This document shows positions 16,701 through 54,632 of a DNA stretch of 64,000 nucleotides, one piece after another. Under the pieces are notes generated by a model. It saw nothing but the letters and a program-made list of their open reading frames with translations, ran no database searches and had not been told where the DNA came from. Every line of letters starts with the position of its first letter. The stretch's first letter is position 1. Location: NCBI GenBank assembly GCA_035529595.1, contig DATKWK010000023.1, positions 601 to 64,600 of the forward strand, read 5' to 3'. The position numbers and the translations under genes were made by a program. The stretch is from Candidatus Bathyarchaeia archaeon. GTDB taxonomy: Bacteria; Patescibacteriota; Microgenomatia; PFEM01; JAFGMK01.

Positions 16701-16958
16701 ATGAACGGCGAGACAGTGATTATTCGTGATCGGTACCAAATAACCATTCCTTATTCTTTGAGAAAAATGTTAACTTGGTTGGTTCCTAAAAAGGTAGTTC
16801 GGGTTAAGATTATCAATAAAGAAAAAGTCCTAATTGAACCCTATAGAGAGATTAAAGTGGATTGGCAGGAAATTTTCAGGCAGTTGACTATAATCAGAGA
16901 TTGGGGAGCAAAAACCTCTTTAAGTCAATTTATTGCCAAAGATAGGGAGTTCCACTGA
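16701..16958 (+). CDS. vapB: AbrB/SpoVT-type (VapB-like) antitoxin
   Basis: Swapped-hairpin N-terminus (ETVIIRDRYQITIPYSLRKML). Its stop overlaps the PIN gene start (ATGA). Confidence 0.55.
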   Translation: MNGETVIIRDRYQITIPYSLRKMLTWLVPKKVVRVKIINKEKVLIEPYREIKVDWQEIFRQLTIIRDWGAKTSLSQFIAKDREFH

Positions 16959-20728: not shown

Positions 20729-20730
20729 AT

Positions 20731-21175
20731 GTTCCTCCTTAGTATCTGGTTCCGGTAGCCTCCGATGTTTTGGAGTCCCACCTACCGGAAAAAAGTTGAT
20801 CTTGTGAAACCAGCAGTCCGATGAAAAGCAAAATCGTATTTTGCCATCCCACGCTCCAAGGAGTCCACGCCTTCGGCGGGACACCTTGCAGGAGGGATTA
20901 GCGCTTTTTGCTCTTTACCGGACTGCCGGTTGGGATCAGACTTTTTTCATTTCACCTCGGAGGAGCAAGATCGTTGTCTTGCACCATCCGAGGAGAAAAT
21001 CACTCGGAGGAATTCGCCTCACAACCCTTATGTCCTAATCCCTAAACCCTATATTTTGTAGCCTTTCAAGAAACCAGCTGTTTTGCTGTTTTTTCGACTG
21101 GCTCTTCGCATTACGAAGAACAGTCAAGCAAAACAACAAAGGTAACTTGAAATTGTTATTTCAAGTTGTCAAGGT
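20731..21175 (-). promoter_or_regulatory. promoter/operator plus ~450-nt conserved 5' leader of the vWA gene (copy A)
   Basis: Blocks 20731..20820 and 20913..21175 are near-identical to 24808..24898 and 25108..25330. The promoter region has TTGACA next to the 22-bp perfect palindrome ACTTGAAATAACAATTTCAAGT. Confidence 0.5.
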
Positions 21176-21373
21176 GCAATAGCAGCAATATTTACTGCTT
21201 TTTTGCGAGCCAAGTATTTTAGGCCGGCCGCTTTATGGCCGGTTTTGAATGGTCTTGACCGCAAAGAGGTAGGGGAGAGAGATTTTTCAATTAATTGTTT
21301 TTATCTCTATTTCTTTCCCATCTCTTTAGGGTCAAGGTTTGTTGATTGACTTTTAATTTTTAAAAGATCTGAA

Positions 21374-24802: not shown

Positions 24803-24807
24803 TCTGT

Positions 24808-25330
24808 GTTCCTCCTAAGTATCTGGTTCCGATAGCCTCCGATGTTTTGGAGTCCCACCTACCGGAAAAAAAGTTGATCTTGTGAAACCAGCAGCCCGGG
24901 AAAAAACAGAAGCAAAATTAAATTATGTGATTAAGTCATTCCGAGGGTCGACTATTCGACCCGAGGAATCTAGCGAAGCGTGAATTATTATTCTTATTAT
25001 CGATTTTTACGCTAATGCTGGATTCTTCTCCCACAAAATGCGGGATCAGAATGACCGGTTCTTGTTGCTAATCACTAAAAACTGATCACTGATGGACTGC
25101 TTCTATTCTTTACCGGACTGCCGGTTGGGATCAGACTTTTTTCATTTCACCTCGGAGGAATTCGCCTCACAAACCCTAGACTCTAGTGTCTAATCCCTAA
25201 ACCCTATATTTTGTAGCCTTTCAAGAAACCAGCTGTTTTGCTGTTTTTTCGACTGGCTCTTCGCCTAACGAAGAACAGTCAAGCAAAACAACAAAGGTAA
25301 CTTGAAATTGTTATTTCAAGTTGTCAAAGA
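24808..25330 (-). promoter_or_regulatory. promoter/operator plus leader of the vWA gene, copy B (interrupted by MITE copy B)
   Basis: Sequence identity to copy A. It lacks a 46-nt internal duplication present in copy A. Confidence 0.5.
24935..25055. mobile_element. MITE-like palindromic element, copy B (GTCATTCCGAGGGTCGA...CAGAATGAC)
   Basis: Terminal inverted repeats. It shares the internal TCTAGCGAAGCG motif with copy A and is inserted in the leader. Confidence 0.5.
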
Positions 25331-25656
25331 GCATTGTTGAGAGCAATGGTTAAGAGCAAAGTTCTCTAGCCTTGCGCCCAACCAGCCGATCTCAAGTTGA
25401 TAAAAAGATACTTGCATAACGCTTTCTGAGATAGTCGAATAAATAGACGACCGAGTCGTCCTGAAAGCGATTTTTCAGCATCCACCAATTCATAGTCCTA
25501 TAGTATTCTTAATCTCCTTTGGAAGCTTGATTGGAAAGTCGAAAAAACTAGCAAAAGAGGCCTATTTTTGACAAAAAGATTGACATTTGTTAAACATTAT
25601 GGGATAATCTTACATATAAAAATAAGAGCGGATTTATTTTAAGTTTATATAGGTTA

Positions 25657-34412: not shown

Positions 34413-35426
34413 ATGAATCTGATGCTTTTTAAACAGTTAGGTATTGATTTGGGAACCGCCAACTCGGTCGTCTATTTAGCCGGCAAGGGGATTGTTTTAA
34501 ACGAGCCGACGGTGGTAGCTGTTTCCTTAGACGATAACCGGGTGGTAGCGGTGGGCAAAGAAGCCAAAGAAATGCTTGGCCGGACGCCCGGCAATATCCG
34601 CGCTTCACGGCCGATGCGTGACGGAGTGATTGCCGATTATGTGATCACCGAGGCGATGCTTCGTTATTTCGTTCAAAAGGTTTGCGGCCGGAATATTTTT
34701 TTTAAACCTGAGGTGATGATTTGTGTTCCCGCCGGCTGTACCCAAGTTGAGCGGCGGGCGGTTTTGGACGCGACTTTGCAAGCCGGCGCCCGGGTAGCTT
34801 ATTTGATTGATGAACCGCTAGCGGCGGCAATTGGCGCCAAAATTCCGATTGCCAATCCTTCCGGCAATATGATTGTGGACATCGGCGGCGGGGCGGCTGA
34901 GGCGGCCGTCATTTCTCTTGGCGGAGTTGTGGTTCATAAATCGGTCCGGGTAGCCGGCAATAAGCTTGATGAGGCGATTGCCGCCTATGTCCGTAAAAAA
35001 CACAATCTGATTATCGGCGACCAGACCGCTGAGCAGGTGAAAATCCAAATCGGTTCGGCTTTACCTCTATCGAAAGAAGAAAAAATGGAAGTTAAAGGCC
35101 GGGACAGCATTATGGGCCTGCCTAAATTGATTACTTTGACGTCAACTGAAGTAGCCGAAGCGATTAGAGGCTCACTCAACCAGATAATCGGAACGATCAA
35201 AGCAGTTTTTGAAGAGACCCCGCCGGAACTGACCAGTGATATAATTGATAAAGGGATTGTCATGAGCGGCGGTACTTCGCTCTTGCGAAACTTCGATAAA
35301 CTGATCACCGCCGAAATCGGAGTTCCGGCCCATGTGGCTGAAGACCCGCTGCTTTGCGTCGTAAAGGGCACCGGCGTAGCTCTCGAGAATATTGCTCTTT
35401 ATAAACGCTCGATTACTAAAAAATGA
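34413..35426 (+). CDS. mreB: rod-shape-determining actin homolog MreB
   Basis: GIDLGTANSVVY phosphate-1 motif, IVDIGGG, VMSGGTSLLRNFDKLI. Confidence 0.9.
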   Translation: MNLMLFKQLGIDLGTANSVVYLAGKGIVLNEPTVVAVSLDDNRVVAVGKEAKEMLGRTPGNIRASRPMRDGVIADYVITEAMLRYFVQKVCGRNIFFKPEVMICVPAGCTQVERRAVLDATLQAGARVAYLIDEPLAAAIGAKIPIANPSGNMIVDIGGGAAEAAVISLGGVVVHKSVRVAGNKLDEAIAAYVRKKHNLIIGDQTAEQVKIQIGSALPLSKEEKMEVKGRDSIMGLPKLITLTSTEVAEAIRGSLNQIIGTIKAVFEETPPELTSDIIDKGIVMSGGTSLLRNFDKLITAEIGVPAHVAEDPLLCVVKGTGVALENIALYKRSITKK

Positions 35427-36007
35427 AACAGATTGTAAAAGATATGAAGTTGAAAAATCACCCTAAGAAAATCTATTTGTATGGGGCGGTTACTATTTTT
35501 TCTTTTACGGCTCTTTTTCTTTTATCGCGGCACGTTAAACGGCAGTTTCTCTGGAACCACTCCGCCGCACAAAAACAGGCGGAAGAGGATCTACCCAGTT
35601 GCCCTCCCGGGACTGTTTTATCAAGAGTATCCAAATTTAAGGGCAGTTTCGAGAATATTGAGCAATTGGATATCAAGGATGAAGCAAATTACCAGGCTGA
35701 ATGGCGGTGTGATCCCAGTCAACCAGCTACTGAAGAGGCGAAGACTTTTTCCGACTTGTTTTGCGGTTGTTCCGATGATTATCAACCGGTTTGCGGTGGA
35801 GATTATTACACTCACCAAAATACCTGCGTGGCCAAATGTATCGGTACCACAGTAGCCTATCAGGGTGAATGCCGGATTTATAAAAAAGAAACGCCTTCGG
35901 CAGGTTGCCTGGCTTGTACCGATAAATGTCCGGACAACCAGGTCTTCTATGAAGACGAAAAAGGCTGTCCGGTGTGCGAATGCCGATTGGGTGAGGGACA
36001 GTGGTAG
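35423..36007 (+). CDS. secreted Kazal-like Cys-rich protein, a paralog of 7338..7727
   Basis: CGCSDDYQPVCGGDYYTHQNTCVAKC and a terminal CPVCEC, as in the paralog. Confidence 0.5.
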   Translation: MKQIVKDMKLKNHPKKIYLYGAVTIFSFTALFLLSRHVKRQFLWNHSAAQKQAEEDLPSCPPGTVLSRVSKFKGSFENIEQLDIKDEANYQAEWRCDPSQPATEEAKTFSDLFCGCSDDYQPVCGGDYYTHQNTCVAKCIGTTVAYQGECRIYKKETPSAGCLACTDKCPDNQVFYEDEKGCPVCECRLGEGQW

Positions 36008-36013
36008 TTACTT

Positions 36014-37489
36014 ATGAAGAGGTGTCTGGTAAAGGCGATCCTGGTCTTGGGCAGCAGTCTGTTTTTCTTTGTCCGCCCGGTTTTCGGATACAAAGCAGAC
36101 ATTTTACAATATTTGGGTGAAGGGCATGGTAGCGGCGGCGGTTACCATGAAAAATTAGCTCTTGATGAGTTAAGCGGTGAGGGAATCACTTATGAGACAG
36201 TCGCCTCGGATGGTGCTTCCGGATACGGTTACGCTTCTTTGTTTATTACCGACGGTAAATTAAGATATCCTGACGGACAACCGCGCTACGGGGTGGTTTT
36301 AGTCGGCGGCGGTGCTTCTTGGGAGTATACGACCGGTACGCCCGAAAGTGATTGTCTTTATAATAATCATCTCTATTGCGGTCCTGGGCTTCAGCGGCAT
36401 GATTCTTCATATACCAGCCTTTCCGGACGGACTCAATTAATTAACTATACCAATAATGGTGGTAACTATGTCGGAATTTGTGCCGGTGCTTATTATGCCA
36501 GCAGCCGTTATCGTTGTAACTGGGATAAAACATCGGATTGCGGTTTTTTAGGAATTTATCTGGGAATTTGGCCGGGGATTACCAATGCCCACGGTTGTAC
36601 TCTCGGGACTACTTTGAGACTGGATACTAGTCAGCCGATTAACGAAGGTTTCGGTTCCTCAATTCCCTGGGTAGGTTTGTATTCCGGTTGCGATTTTGCT
36701 GACTTCGGCAGTCCGGTACCGGATACCAGTTACGTGGCTTTTTTTGATGCTTACCAGAGCGGTGATTGTTATTGGGACAATTTCCAAGATAAACCGGCGG
36801 TGATGGTTTATGACAATGACGGCTTGAAAGGCCGGATTGTTGCCTCCGGTGTTCATCCGGAATATGGCGACAGTGACAGTACCCGGCCTTATTTTAAACG
36901 GCTGCTTAAATATGCATTAGCCAAAAAGCCAGCGATAAACTCCCTGGAATTAATCGGCGGTCAGGAGTATCAACCGGAAGATCCGGTCGGTGACGGCCAG
37001 TATCATTACTATTATCTGGATATTCCGGCAACGGAAGCTTATCAATTAACGGTAGAATTAAAAGACGGTTCCGGTTCAAGAGCCGGTCAAGATAATGATC
37101 TTTACCTTCGGAAAGGGGACTATCCGACTAAAGGAAATCATGATTATCACTCCGACAGCGCTGGTCCTCAGGAGACGATTAATGCCTTGCCGGCAACAAG
37201 TGGCCGTTGGTATGTGGGCGTTTACGGAGCTCATGATGACTGGCAGGGAGGCGGTTACCGGATATTGGCAAATTTGGTCCAAATTACCACTACCCCGACG
37301 CCGACGCCCGTCGTCTGCCAGCCCGCGGGCGATATTGACTGTTCCGGTAAGGTTAATAACCTGGATTTTGGCTCTTTAGCGGTTGATTGGCAGACGGCCG
37401 GGTCAGTTGCCAACCTTGACGGCTTGGGAGTGGTTGATGCGGCTGATGCGATCATTCTTCTGGGAAATTACCTGAGGAAAAGTTTGTGA
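36014..37489 (+). CDS. secreted protein with a PPC (pre-peptidase C-terminal) domain and a C-terminal dockerin
   Basis: The PPC signature is YYYLDIPATEAYQLT...DNDLYLRKGDYPT...SGRWYVGVYGAH. The dockerin reads DIDCSGKVNNLD...NLDGLGVVDAADAIILLGNY. Confidence 0.55.
   Translation: MKRCLVKAILVLGSSLFFFVRPVFGYKADILQYLGEGHGSGGGYHEKLALDELSGEGITYETVASDGASGYGYASLFITDGKLRYPDGQPRYGVVLVGGGASWEYTTGTPESDCLYNNHLYCGPGLQRHDSSYTSLSGRTQLINYTNNGGNYVGICAGAYYASSRYRCNWDKTSDCGFLGIYLGIWPGITNAHGCTLGTTLRLDTSQPINEGFGSSIPWVGLYSGCDFADFGSPVPDTSYVAFFDAYQSGDCYWDNFQDKPAVMVYDNDGLKGRIVASGVHPEYGDSDSTRPYFKRLLKYALAKKPAINSLELIGGQEYQPEDPVGDGQYHYYYLDIPATEAYQLTVELKDGSGSRAGQDNDLYLRKGDYPTKGNHDYHSDSAGPQETINALPATSGRWYVGVYGAHDDWQGGGYRILANLVQITTTPTPTPVVCQPAGDIDCSGKVNNLDFGSLAVDWQTAGSVANLDGLGVVDAADAIILLGNYLRKSL
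37301..37465 (+). repeat. ~165-bp dockerin-encoding module, near-identical to 38398..38562
   Basis: Nucleotide-level identity with only a handful of mismatches between the 3' ends of adjacent genes. Confidence 0.8.
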
Positions 37490-38586
37490 CTATTATGAGG
37501 TTAAAGATGTACAAATTAGTATTGAAGACAGTTATACTAATAACGATTTTTCTTTTATTAACAAAAGATATCGGAGCCGTTTTACCTTCCAGTATCATTC
37601 AACTTTCTCAAGACGTCGAGGAGTTGCGTTTGCAAACTGCCCCTCAGGCGTCGGTCGCTTTTTGGGCTGAATCAGTCAAAGACGGTTTTGTGGCTGAGAA
37701 TGAGTCAGAAAATTGGCCGACGGCGAGTACGATTAAATATTTTATCTTGACAGCTTTTTACCGGCAGTTTATGGACCAATGGAATAACCAGGCGCCGCTT
37801 GGCCAGTATGAGAAGGGAACAGGCGAGTCGGTAAGTGAAACTCTTAACGGTTTTACCTACCGTGATTTAGCCAGAGGAATGATGGGCTATGGCTATAGCG
37901 AGATCGGAAATTGGGCTTACAATCAGTGTGCCAATATCTGCATATATTTTTTAGGTGGACCTTCTGAATGTACGGTAAAAATTCATAGTTTAAATTCCGG
38001 ACTTGATTCGGTATCAATTGGTCGTTATATGCTGGAGGATCGACAGCCAGAAGATAATCTGAATCCCGTAGAGGATTTTGCCCTTTTATTACGCCTGCTT
38101 TTTAAGAACCAAATTCCCAATTTAACTGAAAGTGACCATGATAATATCCGTGAATGTCTTATACAGAATTATTTCCAGGAGAGATATCTAAGTTATATTA
38201 AAACCGGATCTTTAAGTTCTATACCTCCGGTCAGGAGTGAAGCCGGTTATTATCTCAAAGATGATAATGCCTTGATTTGGGCGGTAAATGTAGTTGACTT
38301 TACCGGAGACGGAGCCGGAATTGGCACCTTAGAAAACCAAATCAGTAGCTTGATTAAGCTACGTTTACTTGATGCGCCCGGCGATTCTATCTTGACGCCG
38401 ACGCCCGTCGTCTGCCAGCCCGCGGGCGATATTGACTGTTCCGGTAAGGTTAATAGCTTGGATTTTGGCTCTTTAGCGGTTGATTGGCAGACGGTCGGGT
38501 CAGTTGCCAACCTTGACGGCCTGGGAGTGGTTGATGCGGCTGATGCTATAATTCTATTTGCCAATTATAACAAGGAAGCAGACTAA
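37486..38586 (+). CDS. secreted serine-hydrolase / class-A beta-lactamase-like protein (STIK and KTG motifs) with a C-terminal dockerin
   Basis: ASTIKYF (S-x-x-K), IKTGSL (KTG), and the same dockerin as the upstream gene. Confidence 0.5.
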   Translation: MTIMRLKMYKLVLKTVILITIFLLLTKDIGAVLPSSIIQLSQDVEELRLQTAPQASVAFWAESVKDGFVAENESENWPTASTIKYFILTAFYRQFMDQWNNQAPLGQYEKGTGESVSETLNGFTYRDLARGMMGYGYSEIGNWAYNQCANICIYFLGGPSECTVKIHSLNSGLDSVSIGRYMLEDRQPEDNLNPVEDFALLLRLLFKNQIPNLTESDHDNIRECLIQNYFQERYLSYIKTGSLSSIPPVRSEAGYYLKDDNALIWAVNVVDFTGDGAGIGTLENQISSLIKLRLLDAPGDSILTPTPVVCQPAGDIDCSGKVNSLDFGSLAVDWQTVGSVANLDGLGVVDAADAIILFANYNKEAD

Positions 38587-38601
38587 TAAGTTTTTTCAAA
38601 T

Positions 38602-39759
38602 ATGGACAACGAGTTAAATTTGGGTTTAACCGAAAATTTATCTGAAGCCGGGCTGGCAAAAAAAATCGCCAAAGCGGCGGACGTCACGGCTTCCAATCGG
38701 GAACAATGGCGGAGAATAGGCGGAGACGAGATTCTTGACGAAGAAAGAAAACGCCGATTTGTTAGTTTACAGGCAGCGGCCGGTCAGGATAAACAGGCAG
38801 CGGAAAAACTGACTGCCCTTGACCGTTTAGGTAAATTCCAATCCGGATTAGGACGATTATCCGGGCGATTGACAGGGATGAGAAGCAGCCTGGTTTCTCA
38901 AGAGGCAGGTTATCCCTTAGAGCAGAAGATAGGTTATATCGAGCGATCGGCAAGAATTATTCATCAACGATTACTGCAAATCGGGGAAGTGGCGGCCAAA
39001 GTCCCGAGCTTTGCCTCTCTGGCTCACTCAGTAATTAGTTTATTAAGTTATGCTCAGAATTTATCAATGTACTCTGATCGGTTAGTAAATCAGCCTGAGA
39101 AGGTTGCCATTCTGGAAACAGCGCCAACTAGGATAACCGCCGCCGGTTTATGGATTACCCGGCTTCGCGATGAAATGCTCGGCGTCGGTATCGACCGCCT
39201 GTACTCATCATGGGAAGTTGCCAAGACTATTAAAGCTGGGCATTCGGCTATTCATTTTATCGAAGATGAATCCGTTTTCCCCTGGCTGATCGGTGACCCT
39301 CAACTTTTGCCTCTATTGGCTGGGGAATTGGAAAATAACAGCTTGAAAGCCCGGCCAAGAGATTTGAGAACTGAAATCCGGCTGGATTTTGACCCCGATG
39401 CCGAAAGCTTGATTTTCGTTTATCAGGATAATGCCGGCGGTTTGGTTGGTGATAATTTGAGGGCAGTGGCCGGACAAGGACAAAAGTTGGGATTGATTTC
39501 AGCCGAGGAATTGCAGCAAGTCGAAAGCGATGATCCGCTTAATCCCGAATTGGAAGCCAAAGTAATTAATCTGATTTTTACTCCGGGCATCAGCGGTTTT
39601 AGCCAAACCGGCCGGACCGGTACCGGTTTTGGTCTGGCTGATTTCAGACAAAGAATTCATGAGCAGGGAGGAGAAATCCGGGCAACTAATCTCCGGCAAG
39701 GTGAGAAAGTTATCGGCCTTCGTTTTGATGCTTGTTTTCCAGCTCGTTACCGAAAATAA
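38602..39759 (+). CDS. histidine-kinase-like ATPase (HATPase_c) protein without an obvious HisKA or TM region
   Basis: N box ELENNSLKA, G1 DNAGG, G2 GTGFGLA. Confidence 0.45.
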   Translation: MDNELNLGLTENLSEAGLAKKIAKAADVTASNREQWRRIGGDEILDEERKRRFVSLQAAAGQDKQAAEKLTALDRLGKFQSGLGRLSGRLTGMRSSLVSQEAGYPLEQKIGYIERSARIIHQRLLQIGEVAAKVPSFASLAHSVISLLSYAQNLSMYSDRLVNQPEKVAILETAPTRITAAGLWITRLRDEMLGVGIDRLYSSWEVAKTIKAGHSAIHFIEDESVFPWLIGDPQLLPLLAGELENNSLKARPRDLRTEIRLDFDPDAESLIFVYQDNAGGLVGDNLRAVAGQGQKLGLISAEELQQVESDDPLNPELEAKVINLIFTPGISGFSQTGRTGTGFGLADFRQRIHEQGGEIRATNLRQGEKVIGLRFDACFPARYRK

Positions 39760-39800
39760 GTTCTATTATCCGTAAGAGTCCAGATTTACTGACACACTTG

Positions 39801-39856
39801 GTCATTCTGAACTTGATTCAGGATCTATATAGATTCCGTGTCAAGCACGGAATGAC
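39801..39856. mobile_element. MITE-like palindromic element, copy C (GTCATTCTGAAC...CACGGAATGAC)
   Basis: Same termini as copies A and B, with a central GGATCTATATAGATTCC palindrome. Confidence 0.45.
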
Positions 39857-40731
39857 GGGGTTGCATCAAAGAATCTGAGTAGTTACTAACGTCCCATAGT
39901 GTTGACTTTAGCTGCCGGCACGGATTGAAGACTACCTCTTTGAGGCGGTCTGGAGGGATAACGGGGATGGCCCCCGAATGCCCGGGATCCGTGTAACCAA
40001 GGATGGAAACAAAATCCTTGAAGAGTACACTCTCGCCCGGGACGACCAGAACGATTTTCCCGACGTCTCGGGAGTTGTCTAGACTTGGAGGGGGGAGGTT
40101 ACGTAGAGTTCGTTTTCAGGTCAAGGGAGGGCGTTTTATACTACGATATCTATTAGCGCACTCGAGGCCAGAATCCGCCGTTTCTTGTCTCGCCACTAGG
40201 CGGACGGCGGATTCTGGCCCACTTTGGGAAAGGGAGAAACGGTTTTTTTTCTTGCCTCAAGCGGCAGGAAACCAAAAAACCGAAAAATCCCATTTTCCCA
40301 AGCCATCCTGAACCCTTTGTCACCACTTTTTCTTTTGTTAGACTTAGTATCTCCGTTTTTTTTAATTTATTTTTCACTTCAATAAAGACGGGGAGCTTCG
40401 AAATAGCCTATAACATTGTTTTTCTGTCGATTTTCTGCTCTACTAGATGTAGGCTTTAGAGATCCAAGAATTGGGTCTTTTGCGACCCATTTTTCTTACT
40501 CAAAGCCCCTGTCCCGCCAAAGGCGGGAGCACCTTAACAAGACAGCACGTTGTAATAAAAAAAGGCTATTAGCGCAGAAAGCTAGCACTTTGGATGATAG
40601 CCAAGGAAAAAGGTTACTGTCTAAAATGCTGGTTTTCTGCGCAAGATCGATGCAGAAAGGGGTTAGGCCAATATCCCAAAGCCAGGCTCGTAAGGTCACT
40701 GAACTGATTTCAATCTCAAGGGAGGACTGAA

Positions 40732-41343
40732 ATGAGTCGCAAATTAGTAGGATTCAGTTTATTAGTTCTGCTGGCCACGCAATTTGCGTGTTCTTTAGGT
40801 CAGCCTACCAAGACGCCGGTCTCCGTCACCCCTGAGTATGCAACTCAGACGCCGGCGCCAACGTCGACACCCCAGCCGAGGATTGAGGTTGTGGTATCTA
40901 CGCCTCCGAAGGTTCCGTTCGGACCGGCCAGCTACAGCGACCGGTATTCGGCCCTTTACCTGGAGGACAAGACTGTTCCTGACAGGACGGTAATGGTGCC
41001 AGGCCAGGTCTTTGTAAAGACCTGGAGGGTCAAAAATGTCGGTTCCGCCCCCTGGGAGGGAGACGTTTACTTAGTAAACGTCTCGGTGCAGTGTCGAGAC
41101 TACCCGGCACTGTGTGCTGGTGAGCTAACGCTCATTCCCGAGGACGCAATCTTGGTACCTATGACCGAAACGTCTTCCCTTCAGGTTACTACGACCGCCT
41201 CGGATGGGACCATTGAAATCTCGGTCGAGCTAGAGGCTCCCTTGGAGCCAGGTTTGTATTGCTCTCTCTGGACCTTTTGGGGTCCGGCTGGGAGATTTAT
41301 GGATGAGCTGTTCGTGCTCATCCAGGTCGTGGCGCCCCAATAG
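40732..41343 (+). CDS. secreted protein with an NBR1-like Ig domain (PGQVFVKTWRVKNVGSAPW); GC-rich
   Basis: N-terminal signal ending in FAC. The gene is about 58% GC in one hand-counted sample. Confidence 0.45.
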   Translation: MSRKLVGFSLLVLLATQFACSLGQPTKTPVSVTPEYATQTPAPTSTPQPRIEVVVSTPPKVPFGPASYSDRYSALYLEDKTVPDRTVMVPGQVFVKTWRVKNVGSAPWEGDVYLVNVSVQCRDYPALCAGELTLIPEDAILVPMTETSSLQVTTTASDGTIEISVELEAPLEPGLYCSLWTFWGPAGRFMDELFVLIQVVAPQ

Positions 41344-41549
41344 CCTTGTGATACCCCGCTGCTGCAAGCAGTATCCGCAGTGGCGGGGGTATCCGAAAGG
41401 AAAAAGACGAGGAGCTAGAAAAAAGCAAGATCAGCTCATTTCGAGCTGAACCCTTGATTTTCTCTTTCTTCCTCGATCTTCTGCAACGTGCTGTCTTTTT
41501 CCATTTCTTAAAGCCGATTTTCCAACTTGGAAGTGTTAAAATACATATT

Positions 41550-42686
41550 ATGGTTATTGGTATTGATGCCTCGCGGGCTTTTATAAAACAACGGACTGGC
41601 ACGGAAAATTATTCCTACCAGCTGATTAAGGCTTTAACCAAGATCGACCGCCAAAACCGCTATTTTTTGTACACCAAACCGGATTCGAAAGTTGATTTTC
41701 CGTTACCTCCGAATTTTCAGCTTAAATCGATCTCTTTTCCCCGTCTCTGGACGCAACTGGGTTTGGCTAGCCGGACATTTTTGGATCCGCTTGAGGTTTT
41801 ATTTATTCCCGCCCATACCTTGCCGCTAGTCAGGAAACCCGGTTTAAAAACAGTGGTGACGATTCACGGTTTGGAATACGAATATCTGCCGGAGTATTAC
41901 CGCTTTCCCCAGCGTTTGCTTTTGAACCGCTCGACCGAATATGCGGTCAGGCACGCCGACCGTTTGATCGCCGTTTCCCAGTGGACCAAAAAAGAGCTGG
42001 TAACTCGCTTAGCCGCCGATCCGAAAAAGATCACCGTTATCTACGAAGGAGTCGACCAAGATAAATTTCAAATATCTCGGCCAGAGGCCGATCGTCCTCC
42101 AGACGAAAAAATTAAAAACATTAAAGAAAAATATCGCATAAAAGGGGATTATGTTCTGTTTGTAGGTACCATCCAGCCCAGGAAGAATCTCGAGCGGTTG
42201 ATTGAAGCCTTTTCTTTGCTGGCGCCATCATATCCTGCTCTGGATTTGGTTCTGGCCGGTAAATTAGGTTGGTTGTATGATAAAATCCTTAAAGCGCCCC
42301 AAAAATTCAAGGTCAGGAAGAGGGTTCAATTTCTGGGCCATGTGTCGGATGGGGATTTGGCAGTTCTTTACCAAAAAGCGACAGTTTTTTGTCTTCCCAG
42401 CTTAACCGAAGGCTTTGGTCTGCCGGTGCTTGAAGCGATGGCCGCCGGTACGCCGGTCGTAGCGGCCAAGACCGGTGCCTTGCCGGAAATTGTCGGTAAA
42501 GCCGGACTCTTGATTGATCCTTTAAAGGTTAGAGAAATCGCTGGCGCAATCGGATTGATTCTGGAAAATAAAACTTTAGCTGAGGGGTTACGGGGACAGG
42601 GTTTTACCCGGGTCAAGCAGTTTTTCTGGGGAAAAACCGGCCGCCAAACCTTAAAAATTATTGCTTCCTGGAATATATTATTATAA
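41550..42686 (+). CDS. GT4-family glycosyltransferase
   Basis: EGFGLPVLEAMAAGTPVVA motif. The start is chosen at MVIGIDASRAF; the track ORF begins at 41454. Confidence 0.75.
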   Translation: MVIGIDASRAFIKQRTGTENYSYQLIKALTKIDRQNRYFLYTKPDSKVDFPLPPNFQLKSISFPRLWTQLGLASRTFLDPLEVLFIPAHTLPLVRKPGLKTVVTIHGLEYEYLPEYYRFPQRLLLNRSTEYAVRHADRLIAVSQWTKKELVTRLAADPKKITVIYEGVDQDKFQISRPEADRPPDEKIKNIKEKYRIKGDYVLFVGTIQPRKNLERLIEAFSLLAPSYPALDLVLAGKLGWLYDKILKAPQKFKVRKRVQFLGHVSDGDLAVLYQKATVFCLPSLTEGFGLPVLEAMAAGTPVVAAKTGALPEIVGKAGLLIDPLKVREIAGAIGLILENKTLAEGLRGQGFTRVKQFFWGKTGRQTLKIIASWNILL

Positions 42687-43045
42687 GTTATATTTTAATA
42701 AAAGTTGGGGGAATACAATCAGGGAAATAGTGATCTTATAGTAAGTAACGAATAAAATAAGAAAATAAGGTCTTTGAAGGGACTTTTTAACTAAATTTAG
42801 GTTTAATTAACCAGAGTAAGTATTGTTTGCAATAGAAGCGAAAAAGAAAGGTCACATTATTTAACTTGTTACCTTATAATATGTAAGCTAACCTTGATGA
42901 CTACTTTAAATGAGGTTTTATCATCATAATAACACTTTTGTTACTATAAGATGTTCATGTTTTTGAAACATAGGCGAAAAAATAAGCGTCAATTGATCGT
43001 ATTAGTCAATTTTATGAGTTTCATAGTCGGGAAAAGCTGGTATTT

Positions 43046-43861
43046 ATGGACAAAAAACATCTGAGCTTCGATAAAATTTTGGGTTTTGAGATTGTTAGCA
43101 GCTTACAGGAGAGATTGCTAGACTTTGTGCGTAGTCAAGTGAGGGAAGGCCAGCACCTGTTTATCGTTACCCTCAATCCGGAGTTTGTTATAGCCTCGAA
43201 AAATGATGCTGATTTCTTAAAAACCATCCACAAGGCCGACTTGGTTATTCCTGACGGTGTTGGCTTGGTTTGGGCCGGTGAAGTCTTAAAAGAGAGAGGT
43301 GTTTTGAGGAAAATTTTAAAGGGTTTTAGGGTTGGTATGGCTGTCTTGTCGGGAAATCATAAAAGGCAGGTGATTGCCGGGGTCGAGTTAATGGAAAGCC
43401 TTTGCCGATTGGCCGCTAAAAATGGTTGGTCGGTTTATCTTTTGGGCGCCGGGCCGGGTATTGCCCAAAAGACACTGGCGGTTTTAAAAGTTCGTTATCC
43501 CGGTCTTCGGGGCTGGGCGGCTCATGGACCAAAACTCAAAAGGCAAAACTCAAAATTTAAAACTCAAAACTGTTGGATTAAGGATATTAACCAGAAAAAA
43601 CCAAATTTTCTTTTCGTCGCTTTGGGGATGAAAAAGCAAGAGCAGTTTATCAGGCAGAATTGGTCGGTTTTGAAAGTTAACTTGGCGATAGGTGTCGGCG
43701 GTGCTTTTGACCAAATCGCGACGCCGTCACTAAAACCTCCAGGAGGCCTGCAACGGATCGGACTTGGCTGGTTATATCGTTTACTTCGTCAGCCGCGGCG
43801 TTGGCGACGACAACTTACACTTCTGAAATTTATCTGGCTGGTATTAAGAGAAGACGAGTAG
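43046..43861 (+). CDS. WecB/TagA/CpsF-family glycosyltransferase
   Basis: LFIVTLNPEFV...DLVIPDGVGLVWA, with the typical size. Confidence 0.7.
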   Translation: MDKKHLSFDKILGFEIVSSLQERLLDFVRSQVREGQHLFIVTLNPEFVIASKNDADFLKTIHKADLVIPDGVGLVWAGEVLKERGVLRKILKGFRVGMAVLSGNHKRQVIAGVELMESLCRLAAKNGWSVYLLGAGPGIAQKTLAVLKVRYPGLRGWAAHGPKLKRQNSKFKTQNCWIKDINQKKPNFLFVALGMKKQEQFIRQNWSVLKVNLAIGVGGAFDQIATPSLKPPGGLQRIGLGWLYRLLRQPRRWRRQLTLLKFIWLVLREDE

Positions 43862-44744: not shown

Positions 44745-45002
44745 ATGGTCGATAAAGATATGATTTATCGTTACCTCGGGAACTTAGAGGAATCGCTTAA
44801 GAGAATTGAAAATATGGATGTTACTTTCGAGATGATTTTGGGCAATGAAGACATTCAGGATCTTTTAGACAGAAGAATGCAAAAAGCAATCGAAGCTTGT
44901 TTAGATATTGCCGCTCATCTTGTAGCTTCGGAAAAATTAGGTCAGGCAAAATCAGCTAAGCTTTTAATTGCTGATTATTTTTTCTTCTCACTTCTTATTT
45001 GA
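44745..45002 (+). CDS. small helical protein, possibly a HEPN/DUF86-like fragment
   Basis: 85-aa ORF with weak similarity to HepT-type N-terminal helices. The upstream 67-aa ORF 44552..44755 is doubtful. Confidence 0.25.
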   Translation: MVDKDMIYRYLGNLEESLKRIENMDVTFEMILGNEDIQDLLDRRMQKAIEACLDIAAHLVASEKLGQAKSAKLLIADYFFFSLLI

Positions 45003-45253: not shown

Positions 45254-45859
45254 TTAAAGCAGCAGAAAAGAATTAAGGATTTGGTTAAATGTATTTTTGG
45301 CTTTTTCAGGTTCGATTTGAGTGGCATCATATCGGTAATAAATGATGTAAATTATTTCACCTTGCTGGTAATAAAATTGCTCAGTTGAATTTTTGCTTCT
45401 CAGACAGGAAACATAATAACCGAGATATTTTTGGCTAGTTTCTGCTTCGAAGATCAGACAGCCTTCTTGAGGATTGTCCTCAGCCAATTCCTTAGCCGAT
45501 ATTAAGTTGGAAGTTCCCGGATAATAATGTTTTCCAGTAGTGACTGAAAACCCCGAATCAGGGCCTAAATTAAAAGTGGTACGGTCGGCGATATTCTCAC
45601 TGCTTACTTCGCCCCATTCTTTCGGGTAACTGATACTGAAGTTGAATTGTTCATTTCGGTAGAAAGTTTGATCGCTTAAATCTTGTTCATCGGCGTTATT
45701 ATGTTTTGCAGATAGATTTAAAGACGGGTAAGGTTTTTGAATAGAAACTTTTTTGAAACTAGAATAAAGATACAAGATAGTAAATATCAAAATCAGACAC
45801 AGACAAGAAAAAAAAGCCAGAGCAAAATTTATTCGATTTTCTTTATTCTTACCAAGCAT
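45254..45859 (-). CDS. membrane-anchored secreted protein, a paralog of 52564..53274
   Basis: Shared blocks YP.EWG.V.SE....TTF.LGP.S.F..T.G..Y.P and a C-terminal FNSFLLL. Confidence 0.5.
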   Translation of the reverse strand: MLGKNKENRINFALAFFSCLCLILIFTILYLYSSFKKVSIQKPYPSLNLSAKHNNADEQDLSDQTFYRNEQFNFSISYPKEWGEVSSENIADRTTFNLGPDSGFSVTTGKHYYPGTSNLISAKELAEDNPQEGCLIFEAETSQKYLGYYVSCLRSKNSTEQFYYQQGEIIYIIYYRYDATQIEPEKAKNTFNQILNSFLLL

Positions 45860-47845: not shown

Positions 47846-50800
47846 ATGAAAAAACACTTAGCTGCGACTTTTAAAAAATTAGTTTTCCTCACTTTTCTTT
47901 TCTTTTTTCTCGGGAAATTATCTTGTAAACAGAGCATAGCCTCAGGCGGTTCAATTATTTTGGAAGCCGGTGCTAATATGTCGATAAGAATGACAAAGAA
48001 ATCAAAGTGTGATCCGGCAAGAAATTATATTTTTCAAACGCAACCTGTTAATAGGCAGCTTTTTGATATGAATAGCGATCCACTTAATAGTACGTTTAAT
48101 TTAGGGTCTTACTCTGCGGGGACAGCATTAGTGTTTTTTTATGATACTAAACAAAGTGATTATTGTAAAGATTCGTATACAAATGTGAATTATACAACAT
48201 ATGGGTGGGCTATTAGTGACACGGGAGTGGATAGTTGGACATTAAATCTTGAGGATTGTGCCGCTTGTGGAGGGCCTTTTTTCCAAGACGCAAGTTTTAC
48301 TCTATACGGTGTATTATTGCCGACACCAACACCTATACCTACACCAACGCCAGTTTGTAGTTGTACTGCCTGGAGTAATCAAGGTTGCGATACTTGGTGT
48401 CAGGGAGCCAATTGTTCAGCCAATTTGCTTTGCCAGACTAGGACTTGTAGTCCCCCGCTAGGCTGTTTAACGGAGCAACGGTGTGTTTCAAGCGCCAGTT
48501 GTCCCGTTCCAACACCGACACCGATTCCGACAAACACCCCGAAGCCGCCAACCAATACTCCCATTCCACCGACAAACACCCCGAAGCCGCCGACAGCAAC
48601 CCCAACTCAAGTTCCTTACTGTCGCTGGTGCGGCGATACCTGGCCGTGTTCCAGCGGCCGGAATTGCGACAGTTCTCCCGGAATCTGTATCGTCCCTTTA
48701 AATCGTAATCAGGGAGACTGCGACTGTGATGCCAATTGCAGCGGTAGTCTGGTTTGTGTTGAGGCTGGAACAACCGATCGTTGCTGTTATTACGGTGAAT
48801 CTTACAGCGACGGTTGTTACTATCCCTGCCCCGGGGGGGATGCCGGCGACTCTTTCGGCAGTCCTACCTCAGTCAGCACCCCTTATAATGCTTGTGAATA
48901 TATCTGCCCGCCGGGCGATGAAGATTGGTATAGTTTTACGGTTACGAGCGGCCAGCTAATTAATCTTGACCTAACGAGTCTGCCGGCATCTACTGATTAC
49001 GAGCTTTATCTTTATCGGCCTAATCAAACTGTAGCTGCCAGTTCAACCAGAGGCGCAGGTCTTAGTGAAGCAATCGATTTTACCGCCGATGCCACTGGTA
49101 ACTGGCGCGCTCGGATTTACGGCTATAATAATGCTTGGAATTCATCGGATTCTTTTTGTCTAGCGATTGAAGTAACTACGCCATCCTGTGCCGGATGTTG
49201 GCAGGGAACCACTTGTCTTGCTGGCACCACTAATACTGCTTGTGGAATGAATGGAGTAATCTGTGTCGATTGCACTGCAAGTGGCCAGATTTGCCTTAAT
49301 CGGCAGTGTGTTTCGCTTTCACCAACTCCCACCACTACAATTACCCCGACACCGGTCACTCCCTTCTGTCGTTGGACTTGCGATACTTGGCCTTGTTCGT
49401 CCTCGCTGACTTGCGACTGCGGCCCTAATGCCGATTGTAGCGGAGGCAGCTGTATTATTCTTGACCGGAATCAGGGAGACTGCGATGGCGACTGTAACTG
49501 CCGGGGCAGCTTAGTCTGCTACCAGCGCGACGGTACCGACTATTGTTGTAATGTTGGAGAAATCTGGGATGGTTCTTGTACTACCCCAATTACCCCGATC
49601 CCGACACCGACGCCAACCGTTAACCCTGCTTGCCCGGCCGGTGATGTCGGCGATAGTTTTGACGCTGCCGCCGTTGTCTCTGCTCCTGCCAGTTACAACG
49701 AATATATTTGTGCCATCGGCGATGAAGACTGGTACCGTTTTTCGGTTATCGGCACCGATATTAATGTTAGCCTTACCAGCCTTCCGGCTGACTATGATCT
49801 TTATCTTTACCGGCCCGATGGTAGTCTGGCTGACCAATCGGAAAATAGCGGTACTGCCGATGAATCGATTAGCTTCACGGCCGATATGAGCGGTGATTGG
49901 CGAGTGATGATTCTTGGCTATAACGGCGCTTGGGATCCCTCCGATAGTTATTCCCTTTTAATAACTTTAATTAACGAACCGACTGCCACTGCTACGCCGG
50001 TTGAGACTTGCCAGTGGACTCAAGGTGAAACGTGGGATACTCATATTATGCTGGGTGATGATCCCCAGGTTCATAGCTTTTCACCGCCGTCAGGAACCGT
50101 TGGTGATACCGAGGAAGTGGAGATCCGAACTTACTGGCAATGGTCCGGCTCTTATAACCAGAACCAACATAATGAAGATCATCGTGTAACAACGCCTTTT
50201 GGTATTTCCCAATGCCGGGATTTGGGTGATGAAGAGCTGGAAGGCCAATCGTTGGTCTGTTCGCCGGGACCCGGTACTTTATCAGGAAATTGGACGCAAG
50301 CAGATGGCGATTTGGAAGTGACGGTGGCATTTGCCGGAGATGACAGCTCTCCCGGTTCCCATTACTCACGCGTTTCCATTTGGTGGTGTGTAACGCCGCC
50401 GCCGCCGACGGCTGTGCCAACGCCGACGCCGGTGATTTGCGAGGCGCCGGTTATTAGTAGTAACTACATCTGTCCTGATGAGACTGAAACTGGTTTTCGG
50501 TTTACCAATGTCACTATTCCTTCCGGAGCCCAAATTAACCAAGCCAACTTACGTTTATATACCCGTGACTTCCATGGTGACGTTAGCCTGTTGGTTTCGG
50601 CAGAAGATGTTGATAATGCCGAGAATTTTCTAACCGATCCGGTAAGTAATCGTCTCGGGACGACTGCTCAAGTCAACTGGTCGTTAACCCCGGCCGTCGG
50701 TTGGAATCAATCACCCAATTTGGCTTCACTAATTCAGGAGATAATCGATCGTGATAACTGGCAGGCCGGTTACAGCCTTAATCTTTTGCTTCACAATACG

Positions 50801-52563: not shown

Positions 52564-53274
52564 TTATAATAACCTAAAGGAGTTAAAGATTAAGTCAAAA
52601 GTATCGGCGGCTTCGCTAGAGGCGGTTTTGACCGGGTCATATTCATAGCTAAAAGCATAAATGCTCGGTCCGTCTTGAATGAATCCTTGTTCCGATGGAT
52701 TTTCTGCCTTGTCACAGGCAACCCGGTAACCTTGCCGGTAAGAACCGATATCGACTTCTTTTTTATCACAGCCTTTTTGGGCGAGTTCTTCGGTCATCTT
52801 TTTTGCAGACGGAGTATTAGCGTCTTCGCTTGCCGGGTAGTAGCCGGCGGTTAAGGTAAATTTAGACTCCGGTCCTAACTTAAAAGTAGTTCCATTGTCG
52901 TTTTTTTCGGAAAGTACTTTGCCCCACTGAACCGGATAATCAACACTAAATTCATACGCTTCGCTTTTATAATTAGTAAGCTGAACTGATCCTGAAATTT
53001 GAGAATCTTGATTTGGGTTTTCATTAGGCAAATCCTGTGTTTCCAAGCCTTGTTTTTTAGGGTAGGGAGGGATTTTGGAAGGCGTTTTGCGTAAATTCAG
53101 AAAGAGGTAGATTATTACGCCCAAAGTAATTAGAAACAGCACTGAGAAGATAATCAAAGTAAGATTGGTTTTCTGGTCCTCAGAGGCTGATCTTGGAATC
53201 GCCTTGATTTCCGAGTTGGTTTTCTTATTGACCATTCTATCTTTAAGTAAAGCAATACTTGACTCTTTTGTCAA
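52564..53274 (-). CDS. membrane-anchored secreted protein, a paralog of 45254..45859
   Basis: See the paralog; the C-terminus is FNSFRLL. Confidence 0.5.
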   Translation of the reverse strand: MTKESSIALLKDRMVNKKTNSEIKAIPRSASEDQKTNLTLIIFSVLFLITLGVIIYLFLNLRKTPSKIPPYPKKQGLETQDLPNENPNQDSQISGSVQLTNYKSEAYEFSVDYPVQWGKVLSEKNDNGTTFKLGPESKFTLTAGYYPASEDANTPSAKKMTEELAQKGCDKKEVDIGSYRQGYRVACDKAENPSEQGFIQDGPSIYAFSYEYDPVKTASSEAADTFDLIFNSFRLL

Positions 53275-54570: not shown

Positions 54571-54616
54571 TGACACCCCGGGGGTGCACTGCTATTGACA
54601 CCTTGGTACAGAGGTG
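54571..54616. repeat. REP-like element copy 3 (GACACCCCGGGGGTGCAC hairpin plus TATTGACACCTTGGTACA)
   Basis: It lies immediately upstream of the Y1 transposase start. Confidence 0.6.
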
Positions 54617-54632
54617 TTATTTTATCCTCAGA

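What the first reader, a model, noticed from the sequence alone, without database searches (positions are those of the whole stretch)
36014..38586. Dockerin-tagged secreted enzymes, including a freshly duplicated dockerin module
At least three proteins end in canonical two-repeat dockerin sequences (D-I-D-x-S-G-K-V/T-N...NLDG.G.V...A.IL). They are the GHL10-like hydrolase at 4851..6152, the PPC protein at 36014..37489 and the beta-lactamase-like serine hydrolase at 37486..38586. A fourth, at 6161..7345, has a half-module. The last ~165 nt of the two adjacent genes 36014 and 37486 are nearly identical at the nucleotide level, which points to recent module shuffling or gene conversion. No cohesin or scaffoldin is evident in the window. 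The partner may be host-derived or may lie elsewhere in the genome; this is speculative. A cellulosome-like docking system would be unexpected in a CPR-like organism.
Basis: partly seen in the sequence, partly recalled or inferred. Interest (0 to 1): 0.6.

Follow-up and report, generated by a model that had tools for sequence, protein, structure and literature searches.

The report
Dockerin-tagged secreted enzymes in a CPR bacterium
Three secreted enzymes of a tiny candidate-phyla-radiation (CPR) bacterium end in a real but divergent dockerin "docking tag"; two neighbouring tags were recently made alike by DNA exchange, and such tags are already known in this group, so this is a solid but modestly new case.

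Summary
Genes A (36014..37489), B (37486/37507..38586) and C (4851..6152, minus strand) end in the same ~55-residue two-repeat module. Gene D (6161..7345, minus strand) ends in a single repeat.

Each tail alone scores below Pfam's Dockerin_1 cut-off (11.5, 14.8 and 20.1 bits against 22.9), but Dockerin_1 is the only family hit. A family profile seeded on the tails matches solved dockerins along their whole length (E=2.6e-12). An AlphaFold model of tail A (pLDDT 92) superposes on a solved dockerin at 1.0 Å. RTX and generic EF-hand readings are rejected.

The A and B tails share a 162-nt tract at 96% identity. Its edges are sharp, and the last 11 codons of both genes have diverged. This fits gene conversion between two existing tails better than a fresh module duplication.

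The organism is a Microgenomates-type CPR bacterium; the NCBI label "Bathyarchaeia archaeon" is wrong. Relatives carry arrays of up to six consecutive enzymes with the same cysteine-bearing tail variant.

No cohesin was found in 57 window ORFs. Dockerins, and cohesins, have already been reported in CPR bacteria.

Verdict: a new member of a known kind, of modest interest.

The parts
36014..37489 (+). Gene A, 491 aa. It consists of a signal-peptide-like N-terminus (MKRCLVKAILVLGSSLFFFVRPVFG), a class-I glutamine-amidotransferase-like (BPL_N) domain, a PPC domain, a Thr/Pro linker and a dockerin tail.
   Evidence: ORF. Pfam BPL_N 6.4e-10 and PPC 6.2e-9 (residues 329-405). C156 and H281-P282-E283 are invariant in 12 homologues. 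A full-length homologue with the same kind of tail is P0031 / L009 8663..10192, 40% identity, E=3e-104. The signal peptide is inferred from the sequence.
37316..37477 (+). Dockerin module of A (residues 435-488). The sequence is C-QPAG-DIDCSGKVNNLD (loop 1), helix 1, the linker QTAGSVA, NLDGLGVVDAAD (loop 2) and helix 2.
   Evidence: Dockerin_1 is the only Pfam hit: 11.5 bits, E=0.35, below the 22.9 cut-off. The AF2 model has pLDDT 92.3 with helices at tail residues 23-31 and 50-58. The top 21 Foldseek PDB hits are all dockerins; 2y3n_B gives TM 0.78/0.84 and rmsd 1.0 Å.
37297..37458 (+). Homogenised (gene-conversion) tract, copy in A.
   Evidence: 6 mismatches in 162 nt against 38394-38555. 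It is the longest direct repeat in the window.
37486..38586 (+). Gene B. The longest ORF starts at GTG 37486 (366 aa). The likely start is ATG 37507 (359 aa), with GAGG 6 nt upstream. It consists of a signal-like N-terminus, a beta-lactamase-like serine hydrolase domain (S-T-I-K and K-T-G motifs present) and a dockerin tail.
   Evidence: ORF. Pfam Beta-lactamase2 2.9e-12, residues 62-267. The database entry P0003/HUW21564.1 is 359 aa. Start context. The motifs were read from the translation.
38413..38574 (+). Dockerin module of B.
   Evidence: Dockerin_1 is the only Pfam hit: 14.8 bits, E=0.033. It is 83-85% identical to A's tail at protein level.
38394..38555 (+). Homogenised (gene-conversion) tract, copy in B.
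4851..6152 (-). Gene C, 433 aa. A secreted protein of unidentified catalytic fold with a dockerin tail that lacks the two cysteines.
   Evidence: ORF. No Pfam, NCBIfam or PDB match for the body.
4854..5012 (-). Dockerin module of C (TDIDGSGKTNGLD ... NLDGQGSVGKND ...).
   Evidence: Dockerin_1 20.1 bits, E=7.4e-4, two stretches. It is 49% identical to A's tail.
6161..7345 (-). Gene D, 394 aa. A secreted protein with a weak N-formylglutamate-amidohydrolase-like signal, a Thr/Pro linker and a single-repeat ending.
   Evidence: ORF. FGase E=0.05 and TIGR02017 E=0.078, both far below their cut-offs.
6179..6232 (-). Half-module of D (NLINGFDLGYLYLNWGKT), equivalent to the end of loop 1 plus helix 1.
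   Evidence: hhalign against the family profile gives probability 89% and E=2.4e-6 over 18 columns. The three-tail HMM gives only E=0.31. A similar ending, NSFDLGYLLLHWQEDCQ, occurs in L003/L007.
35423..36007 (+). Context gene. A Cys-rich Kazal-like small protein that heads the A-B gene string. Its start overlaps the mreB stop, and it ends 6 nt before A.
   Evidence: ORF. It is a paralogue of 7338..7727: 40% identity over 101 aa, E=1e-23. The Kazal hit is weak.
7338..7727 (-). Context gene. The paralogous Kazal-like small protein that heads the D-C gene string.
   Evidence: Kazal_2 E=4.8e-4, below the cut-off. Paralogy.

Best explanation
The tails of A, B and C are true members of the dockerin family. 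Each has two EF-hand-like Ca2+ loops, each followed by a helix. They belong to a divergent non-cellulosomal subtype common in CPR/Patescibacteria.

In A and B the module carries two cysteines (C-x-P-x-G-D-I-D-C). These probably form a disulfide that clamps the N-terminal strand to the first Ca loop.

The modules sit behind Thr/Pro linkers at the C-termini of secreted hydrolases. A is a Cys-His-Glu amidotransferase-like protein with a PPC domain. B is a beta-lactamase-like serine hydrolase. C is an unidentified enzyme.

The tails most likely act as a shared, Ca2+-dependent address tag. The tag would hold these enzymes on a cohesin-type or other surface receptor encoded elsewhere in the ~0.85-Mb genome.

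Because all tails must fit the same receptor, they evolve in concert. The A/B pair shows the latest event, a ~160-nt gene-conversion tract between two existing tails in adjacent, probably co-transcribed genes.

**Shown:** family membership by profile and by predicted fold; the DNA tract and its boundaries; the variety of cargo; the arrays in relatives.
**Inferred:** secretion, the disulfide, Ca2+ binding, the receptor, and conversion as the mechanism.
For: **Identity of the module**
- Dockerin_1 is the only Pfam family hit by the tails.
- The three-tail profile already ranks dockerins first in the PDB (2y3n_B, E=0.0012).
- The same profile finds 520 proteins at E<=1e-3 among 1.84 billion.
- Of 58 aligned modules, 48 hit Dockerin_1, best E=2.8e-13.
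- The 58-sequence profile matches about 30 solved dockerins along the full module (E=2.6e-12). Calmodulin matches only over one 12-residue loop, at E~0.02.
- The AF2 model has pLDDT 92.3. The top 21 PDB fold hits are all dockerins, with rmsd 1.0 Å to 2y3n_B.
- P0002, a 37%-identical homologue of A, has a precomputed Dockerin_1 hit; its sequence shows a canonical-looking two-repeat segment directly after the PPC domain, the same position as A's tail.

**Cysteine pair**
- The loop cysteine co-occurs with an upstream cysteine in 44 of 47 modules, against 34 of 128 modules without the loop cysteine.

**Tag behaviour**
- Only the tails are shared between the window proteins and the proteins of a related contig.
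- That contig has six consecutive genes with different cargo and tails 68-86% identical at DNA level.
- Cargo of 38 Cys-type proteins includes beta-helix, GH5, GH16, GH26, GH39, beta-lactamase and M12 peptidase domains.

**Gene conversion**
- The tract is 96% identical with sharp edges. The last 11 codons are in register but differ at 14 of 33 nt. The upstream sequence is unrelated.

**Precedent for a receptor**
- Cohesin-domain genes are reported as expressed in a Microgenomates MAG (PMC9123182).
Against: - Each tail alone is below Pfam's gathering score.
- Loop 2 of A and B has Leu, and loop 2 of C has Gln, at Ca-ligand position 5. C also has Gly at position 9. The second site may therefore bind Ca2+ weakly or not at all.
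- No cohesin was found in 57 window ORFs, in 9 neighbours of related arrays, or in the precomputed Pfam lists of about 13 kb of flanking DNA.
- No window protein has scaffoldin-like internal repeats.
- The rest of the genome could not be searched, so the receptor is hypothetical.
- The AF2 alignment contained canonical dockerin-like sequences, so the model leans towards that fold.
- Many bacteria carry dockerin-like modules with no known cohesin.
Confidence: 0.6

Rival explanations
1. The tails have the dockerin fold but no cohesin partner. They act alone, either as a Ca2+-dependent stabilising or solubility module, or as a direct binder of host or own cell-wall glycan. This is what is assumed for many non-cellulosomal dockerin-like modules.
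For: No cohesin was detected in any sequence examined. In other small-celled bacteria, dockerin domains are discussed as adhesins or glycan-targeting domains without a cohesin (PMC10066038; PMC10633639). The giant protein next to the related array has five Laminin_G_3 lectin-like domains.
Against: Strong within-genome homogenisation of tails on unrelated cargo is most easily explained by one shared specific partner. Cohesin-domain genes are reported in a related Microgenomates MAG. Only about 10% of the genome was searched.
Confidence: 0.25
2. The A/B identity reflects a recent duplication or domain shuffle that newly attached a copy of A's dockerin to a previously untagged B.
For: The tract begins inside the Thr/Pro linker, exactly at the domain boundary. 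A's family carries this tail type in another genome (P0031), so A could be the donor.
Against: The tract ends about 30 nt before the stop codon. Downstream, both genes keep the same number of codons and a conserved N-Y in register, yet differ at 14 of 33 nt. This means B already had a homologous tail. A beta-lactamase-family enzyme in a related genome also carries a tail (L003 7161..8348).
Confidence: 0.12
3. The repeats are generic Ca-binding motifs (RTX-like or calmodulin-type EF-hands), not dockerins.
For: EF-hand_1 or EF-hand_6 models hit 15 and 11 of the 58 family modules. Calmodulins appear in the PDB search lists.
Against: Calmodulin matches cover only one 12-residue loop (E~0.02, TM 0.24). 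Dockerins match both loops and both helices (E=2.6e-12, TM 0.78-0.84). No RTX or HemolysinCabind hit appears even at E<=10, and no GGxGxDxUx nonapeptides are present in the sequence.
Confidence: 0.03

Closest known systems
Type I dockerin modules of cellulosomal enzymes (Pfam PF00404; e.g. Pseudobacteroides cellulosolvens Cel48 dockerin 2Y3N_B, C. thermocellum Xyn10B 1OHZ_B, CelS 1DAQ)
   Same: Two tandem segments, each a 12-residue EF-hand-like loop plus a helix. The module is C-terminal, follows a linker and sits on secreted hydrolases. The profile match is E=2.6e-12 and the fold match is rmsd 1.0 Å.
   Different: Each tail alone is below the Pfam threshold. The inter-repeat linker is shorter, with a conserved W-(G/Q)-T. 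There is a Cys pair C-x-P-x-G-D-x-D-C. Loop 2 lacks a ligand at position 5. No scaffoldin or cohesin was seen, and the cargo here is amidase- or peptidase-like rather than cellulase.
Non-cellulosomal dockerin-like modules (Peer et al. 2009, cited in PMC10066038; C. perfringens NagH/NagJ complex 2OZN)
   Same: A dockerin fold outside cellulolytic clostridia, on varied secreted proteins. 2ozn_B is among the fold hits, with TMq 0.68.
   Different: In C. perfringens the cohesin partner is known. Here it is not.
Dockerin and cohesin genes already reported in CPR/Patescibacteria (SEML1_0315 in Southlakia epibionticum, PMC10633639; Shapirobacterales BG1-G2, PMC9123182)
   Same: The same superphylum. 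By MreB the window is Microgenomates-like: 89% to Pacebacteria and 80% to Shapirobacteria. The dockerin domains are on envelope or secreted proteins.
   Different: The parts of those papers read here mention only the presence of the domains. Tandem arrays, within-genome homogenisation and the Cys-pair variant are not mentioned there. Sequence relatedness to those proteins was not tested.
Calmodulin-type EF-hand
   Same: The 12-residue D-x-D-x-(D/S)-G-x-(I/V)-(D/N)-x-x-D Ca loop.
   Different: There is no entering helix, the overall fold differs, and the match covers the loop only.

Membership tests
Dockerin (Pfam PF00404 Dockerin_1) | Scores at or above the curated Pfam gathering threshold (22.9 bits) | tested here: not met
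   A 11.5, B 14.8 and C 20.1 bits. It is nevertheless the only family hit. No hit at all appears when the full-length proteins are scanned.
Dockerin (Pfam PF00404 Dockerin_1) | Homology to bona fide dockerins shown through a family profile | tested here: met
   The tail-seeded search finds 520 proteins. Of 58 modules, 48 hit Dockerin_1, best 2.8e-13. The profile against the PDB gives about 30 dockerins at the top, E=2.6e-12 over profile positions 11-63.
Dockerin (Pfam PF00404 Dockerin_1) | Two tandem loop-helix segments forming the dockerin fold | tested here: met
   AF2 pLDDT 92.3, with two helices each following a loop. The top 21 Foldseek hits are all dockerins; 2y3n_B gives TM 0.78/0.84 and rmsd 1.0 Å. 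Caveat: the alignment used for the model included canonical family members.
Dockerin (Pfam PF00404 Dockerin_1) | Ca2+ ligands at loop positions 1, 3, 5, 9 and 12 in both repeats | tested here: inconclusive
   Loop 1 is complete: D, D, S, N, D. Loop 2 of A and B is N, D, L, D, D. Loop 2 of C is N, D, Q, G, D. Residues were read. Binding itself cannot be tested here.
Cellulosome-like cohesin-dockerin system | A cohesin-bearing partner or scaffoldin in the same genome | tested here: not met
   No Cohesin (PF00963) hit in 57 window ORFs, at E cut-offs of 0.01-1. No internally repeated protein. None in the flanks.
Cellulosome-like cohesin-dockerin system | Ca2+-dependent, high-affinity binding of dockerin to cohesin | not testable with these tools
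   Needs protein biochemistry or complex prediction against candidate partners.
RTX / beta-roll Ca-binding repeats | Tandem GGxGxDxUx nonapeptides (Pfam HemolysinCabind) | tested here: not met
   No such hit at E<=10. The motif is absent from the tail sequences.
Class A beta-lactamase-like serine hydrolase (cargo of B) | Pfam Beta-lactamase2 above threshold, with S-x-x-K and K-T-G motifs | tested here: met
   46.8 bits against 22. ASTIK and IKTGS are present in the translation. No PDB relative was found by single-sequence search.
   No Pfam family at E<=1, no NCBIfam hit and no PDB hit.

The most novel reading that the evidence does not exclude
CPR (Microgenomates-type) bacteria use a lineage-specific, disulfide-clamped dockerin variant (C-x-P-x-G-D-I-D-C) as a genome-wide address tag. 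The tag displays a changing set of hydrolases on a single, still unidentified receptor, either on their own envelope or on the host cell. Gene conversion keeps all tails matched to that receptor. This would amount to a minimal enzyme-display system adapted to an episymbiotic lifestyle rather than to cellulose breakdown.
Probability: 0.25. Interest if true: 0.55.

Novelty: new member of a known kind. Interest (0 to 1): 0.33.

Why it matters
CPR bacteria have tiny genomes and depend on other cells, and how they place enzymes on their own or their host's surface is largely unknown. A shared docking tag on varied secreted hydrolases, kept uniform by gene conversion, points to one receptor that organises their extracellular enzymes. 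Finding that receptor would give an experimental handle on envelope biology and host interaction in CPR bacteria. The practical by-products are smaller. The Pfam dockerin model misses this subtype, so CPR dockerin counts are probably underestimates. The public MAG that holds this locus is mislabelled as an archaeon.

Tried and rejected
1. Searching the word-indexed protein database with the three-tail alignment returned nothing. The exhaustive representative search worked instead.
2. The genome contigs and metagenome-contig scans with the tail pattern GDIDCSGK gave only 1 and 4 loci. This was too few for a guilt-by-association search for a partner. The window's own genome is not in genome contigs.
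3. The 26-sequence alignment was too variable for a pattern scan.
4. The Kazal-like proteins that head both window clusters were tested as a recurrent neighbour of tail arrays. They occur only in this genome, so they were rejected as a general partner.
5. Giant proteins next to related arrays were tested for cohesins. They contain Laminin_G_3 or glycosyltransferase/transposase domains and no cohesin.
6. Single-sequence PDB searches for the bodies of B, C and D found nothing useful.
7. The full-length AF2 model of A was too poor to search (mean pLDDT 59; only the PPC domain was confident).
8. The direction of transfer between A and B could not be settled. A's orthologue tail (P0031) is not the closest relative of the A/B tail.
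9. RTX, generic EF-hand and C-terminal sorting-signal readings were considered and rejected. There is no nonapeptide, calmodulin matches cover the loop only, and the tail has no hydrophobic segment or LPXTG motif.
Full report
**1. What is in the sequence**

- A: 36014..37489, plus strand, 491 aa.
- B: 37486..38586, plus strand, 366 aa as the longest ORF. Public gene calls, and a GAGG 6 nt upstream, favour ATG 37507, giving 359 aa.
- C: 4851..6152, minus strand, 433 aa.
- D: 6161..7345, minus strand, 394 aa.

All four begin with a basic-then-hydrophobic N-terminus typical of exported proteins. This is read from the sequence; no signal-peptide predictor was available.

The cargo domains are as follows.
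- A has BPL_N (a class-I glutamine-amidotransferase-like fold, E=6.4e-10) and PPC (E=6.2e-9). C156 and H281-P282-E283 are invariant in 12 homologues, which suggests a Cys-His-Glu hydrolase.
- B is Beta-lactamase2 (E=2.9e-12). It retains S-T-I-K and K-T-G.
- C has no Pfam, NCBIfam or PDB match, so the 'GHL10-like' label is unverified.
- D has only very weak N-formylglutamate-amidohydrolase-like signals.

**2. The tails**

The last ~55 residues of A, B and C align with 26 invariant positions. An HMM built from them finds only these three in the six-frame translation of the window. D comes next, at E=0.31.

D's ending NLINGFDLGYLYLNWGKT matches the end of loop 1 plus helix 1 of the family profile (hhalign probability 89%, E=2.4e-6, 18 columns). 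A comparable single-repeat ending closes the last gene of a related array. The 'half-module' is therefore real but weak.

**3. Are they dockerins?**

Scanned alone, each tail hits only Dockerin_1, and each falls below the 22.9-bit cut-off: A 11.5, B 14.8 and C 20.1 bits. Three independent lines rescue membership.

- **Family profile.** A profile of just the three tails already ranks solved dockerins first (2y3n_B, E=0.0012). Against 1.84 billion representative proteins it finds 520 proteins at E<=1e-3. I aligned 58 modules with the window tails first. Of these, 48 hit Dockerin_1 (best E=2.8e-13), while EF-hand models hit at most 15. The 58-sequence profile matches about 30 solved dockerins over the whole module (E=2.6e-12). 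Calmodulins appear only at E~0.02, over a single 12-residue loop.
- **Predicted fold.** An AlphaFold2 model of tail A has pLDDT 92.3 and two helices, each following a loop. The 21 best Foldseek PDB hits are all dockerins. The best is 2y3n_B, with TM 0.78/0.84 and rmsd 1.0 Å over 54 columns. Calmodulin aligns over 21 residues with TM 0.24.
- **Position.** P0002, a 37%-identical homologue of A, has a precomputed Dockerin_1 hit, and its sequence shows a canonical-looking two-repeat segment directly after the PPC domain.

No RTX motif or model matches.

There are two caveats. First, the AF2 alignment contained canonical relatives. Second, the second Ca loop is degenerate: Leu (A, B) or Gln (C) at ligand position 5, and Gly at position 9 in C.

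**4. A cysteine-bearing subtype**

A and B, and many database relatives, share C-x-P-x-G-D-I-D-C. Among 175 modules from the top hits, a cysteine at loop position 4 co-occurs with a cysteine 3-7 residues (typically 5) before the loop in 44 of 47 cases. The figure is 34 of 128 for modules without the loop cysteine. The sequences are related, so the Fisher p-value is not a true probability.

I infer a disulfide clamp. This is reminiscent in purpose of the intramolecular clasp described for a Ruminococcus dockerin (title and abstract of PMC3821032).

**5. The A/B near-identity**

The repeat is the longest direct repeat in the window. In codon register the identical tract runs from the Thr/Pro linker to '...DAIIL': 37297-37458 against 38394-38555. 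It has 6 mismatches in 162 nt, of which 4 are synonymous and 2 are not.

Upstream identity is 32%, which is chance level. Downstream, both genes have exactly 11 more codons with a conserved N-Y in register, yet they differ at 14 of 33 nt.

A fresh copy would be uniformly similar through to its end. A sharp internal 3' boundary inside an already homologous, equal-length tail is the signature of gene conversion between existing paralogous tails. This is an inference. Tail C is only 49% identical to A at protein level and about 60% at DNA level, so it is an older paralogue.

**6. Organism and context**

The window carries the following genes:
- mreB (E=5.6e-139);
- an OmpR-type regulator;
- wecG;
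- the gene string nusG, L11, L1, L10 and L7/L12; a secE gene sits just upstream of nusG in the public gene calls for the same contig.

It is therefore bacterial. Apart from the window's own entry, every named MreB hit is from Patescibacteria:
- Pacebacteria, 89%;
- 'Patescibacteria group', 85% and 81%;
- Shapirobacteria, 80%.

The locus lies on an 846,852-bp contig. The NCBI label 'Candidatus Bathyarchaeia archaeon' (HUW21563.1 and HUW21564.1) is therefore a misclassification.

mreB, the Kazal-like gene, A, B and a 385-aa gene are packed with gaps of -4 to 17 nt, and the scan found no convincing terminator in these short gaps. They are probably one transcript.

In two relatives the order PEGA | mreB | X | GT4 | wecG is conserved but X varies. 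In a Pacebacteria MAG, X is an 858-aa DUF5060 protein with a non-Cys dockerin tail (E=2e-4). In another relative it is an untagged 790-aa protein. A and B therefore sit in a variable slot.

**7. The same tag elsewhere**

- Contig Ga0307379_10000188 has six consecutive genes with different cargo: NosD-like, DUF6298, beta-lactamase, an unknown protein, and two Pel9A-like beta-helix proteins. All end in Cys-type tails. These tails carry genome-specific features (WGLSSYPAANLDD) and are 68-86% identical at DNA level. The contig also has three looser dockerin-like modules and one half-module.
- Between that contig and the window, only the tails are similar.
- P0031 (L009) is a full-length homologue of A, including the tail (40% identity, E=3e-104).
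- Other carriers are named Roizmanbacteria and Patescibacteria.
- Cargo of 38 Cys-type proteins includes beta-helix (7), beta-propellers (4), GH5, GH39, GH26, GH16, beta-lactamase and M12 peptidase domains.

Overall the module behaves as a portable tag that is homogenised within each genome.

**8. The partner**

No cohesin was found in any of the following:
- 57 window ORFs;
- the precomputed Pfam lists for flanking DNA;
- 9 neighbours of related arrays.

No window protein has scaffoldin-like internal repeats. About 90% of the genome could not be reached with the available tools, so the receptor remains hypothetical.

The literature lowers the surprise. An essential dockerin-domain protein is reported in a cultivated patescibacterium (PMC10633639). 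Expressed cohesin- and dockerin-domain genes are reported in a Shapirobacterales (Microgenomates) MAG (PMC9123182). Non-cellulosomal dockerins have been discussed since Peer et al. 2009, as cited in PMC10066038.

**9. Verdict**

The tails are genuine but divergent dockerins. The A/B identity is gene conversion rather than a new module.

This is a new member of a known kind, with a modestly new twist: the Cys-pair subtype and the concerted evolution of tails in arrays. Interest is about 0.33.

Noticed in passing
whole window; proteins HUW21563.1 / HUW21564.1 (36014..38586): The public MAG that holds this locus is labelled 'Candidatus Bathyarchaeia archaeon'. The window encodes bacterial MreB, NusG-L11-L1-L10-L7/L12, an OmpR-type regulator and WecG. 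Its MreB is 80-89% identical to Pacebacteria, Shapirobacteria and Patescibacteria proteins. The taxonomic label is wrong.
   Followed up: yes
35423..36007 (+) and 7338..7727 (-): Two paralogous Cys-rich Kazal/antistasin-like small proteins (40% identity, E=1e-23), each with an N-terminal hydrophobic segment. Each sits directly upstream of one dockerin-enzyme pair, so the two clusters share the layout [Kazal-like]-[enzyme-tail]-[enzyme-tail]. They were not found next to tail arrays in other genomes.
   Followed up: partly
20650..21300 and 24730..25450 (minus-strand genes 18470..~20710 and 23261..24802): Two secreted-protein genes about 4.1 kb apart share a duplicated upstream region. It has a ~180-nt block and a ~95-nt block just before the AGGAGG/start, at 97-100% identity, separated by variable sequence. 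The downstream ends (18364-18466 and 21857-21957) are also alike, at 75-78%. This looks like a duplicated promoter or leader. There is no Rfam hit.
   Followed up: partly
7973..8626 (-): A 217-aa protein made almost entirely of Thr/Pro-rich linker. It ends in LPATG plus a hydrophobic stretch and basic residues, which is a sortase-type cell-wall anchor signal. It lies next to the C/D cluster.
   Followed up: no
39760..40731: A stretch of about 970 nt between the 385-aa gene and the NBR1-like Ig-domain gene. It holds only two Arg-rich, implausible ORFs. There is no Rfam family at gathering threshold.
   Followed up: no
34413..43861; compare L004 and L006: The segment between mreB and the GT4/wecG genes is a variable slot. 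This genome holds the Kazal-like gene, A, B, an HATPase_c-like 385-aa gene and an NBR1-like Ig protein. A Pacebacteria relative holds one 858-aa DUF5060 protein with a dockerin-like tail. Another relative holds an untagged 790-aa protein.
   Followed up: yes
45254..45859 (-), 47846..52339 (+), 52564..53274 (-): A 1497-aa secreted protein with two PPC domains is flanked by two PsbP_2-like paralogues (35% identity, E=9e-38).
   Followed up: no
54603..55286 (+): An IS200-type Y1 transposase sits between a MerR-like gene and the L7/L12-L10 ribosomal genes.
   Followed up: no
L011 (Ga0307379_10000024) and L003 (Ga0307379_10000188): The window's genome and the second CPR genome with the six-gene tail array were both assembled from the same JGI sample, 3300031565.
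   Followed up: no
16701..17371 (+) and 44745..45002 (+): Toxin-antitoxin-like genes: a PrlF-like (weak, E=0.0045) plus PIN pair, and a HepT-like fragment.
   Followed up: no
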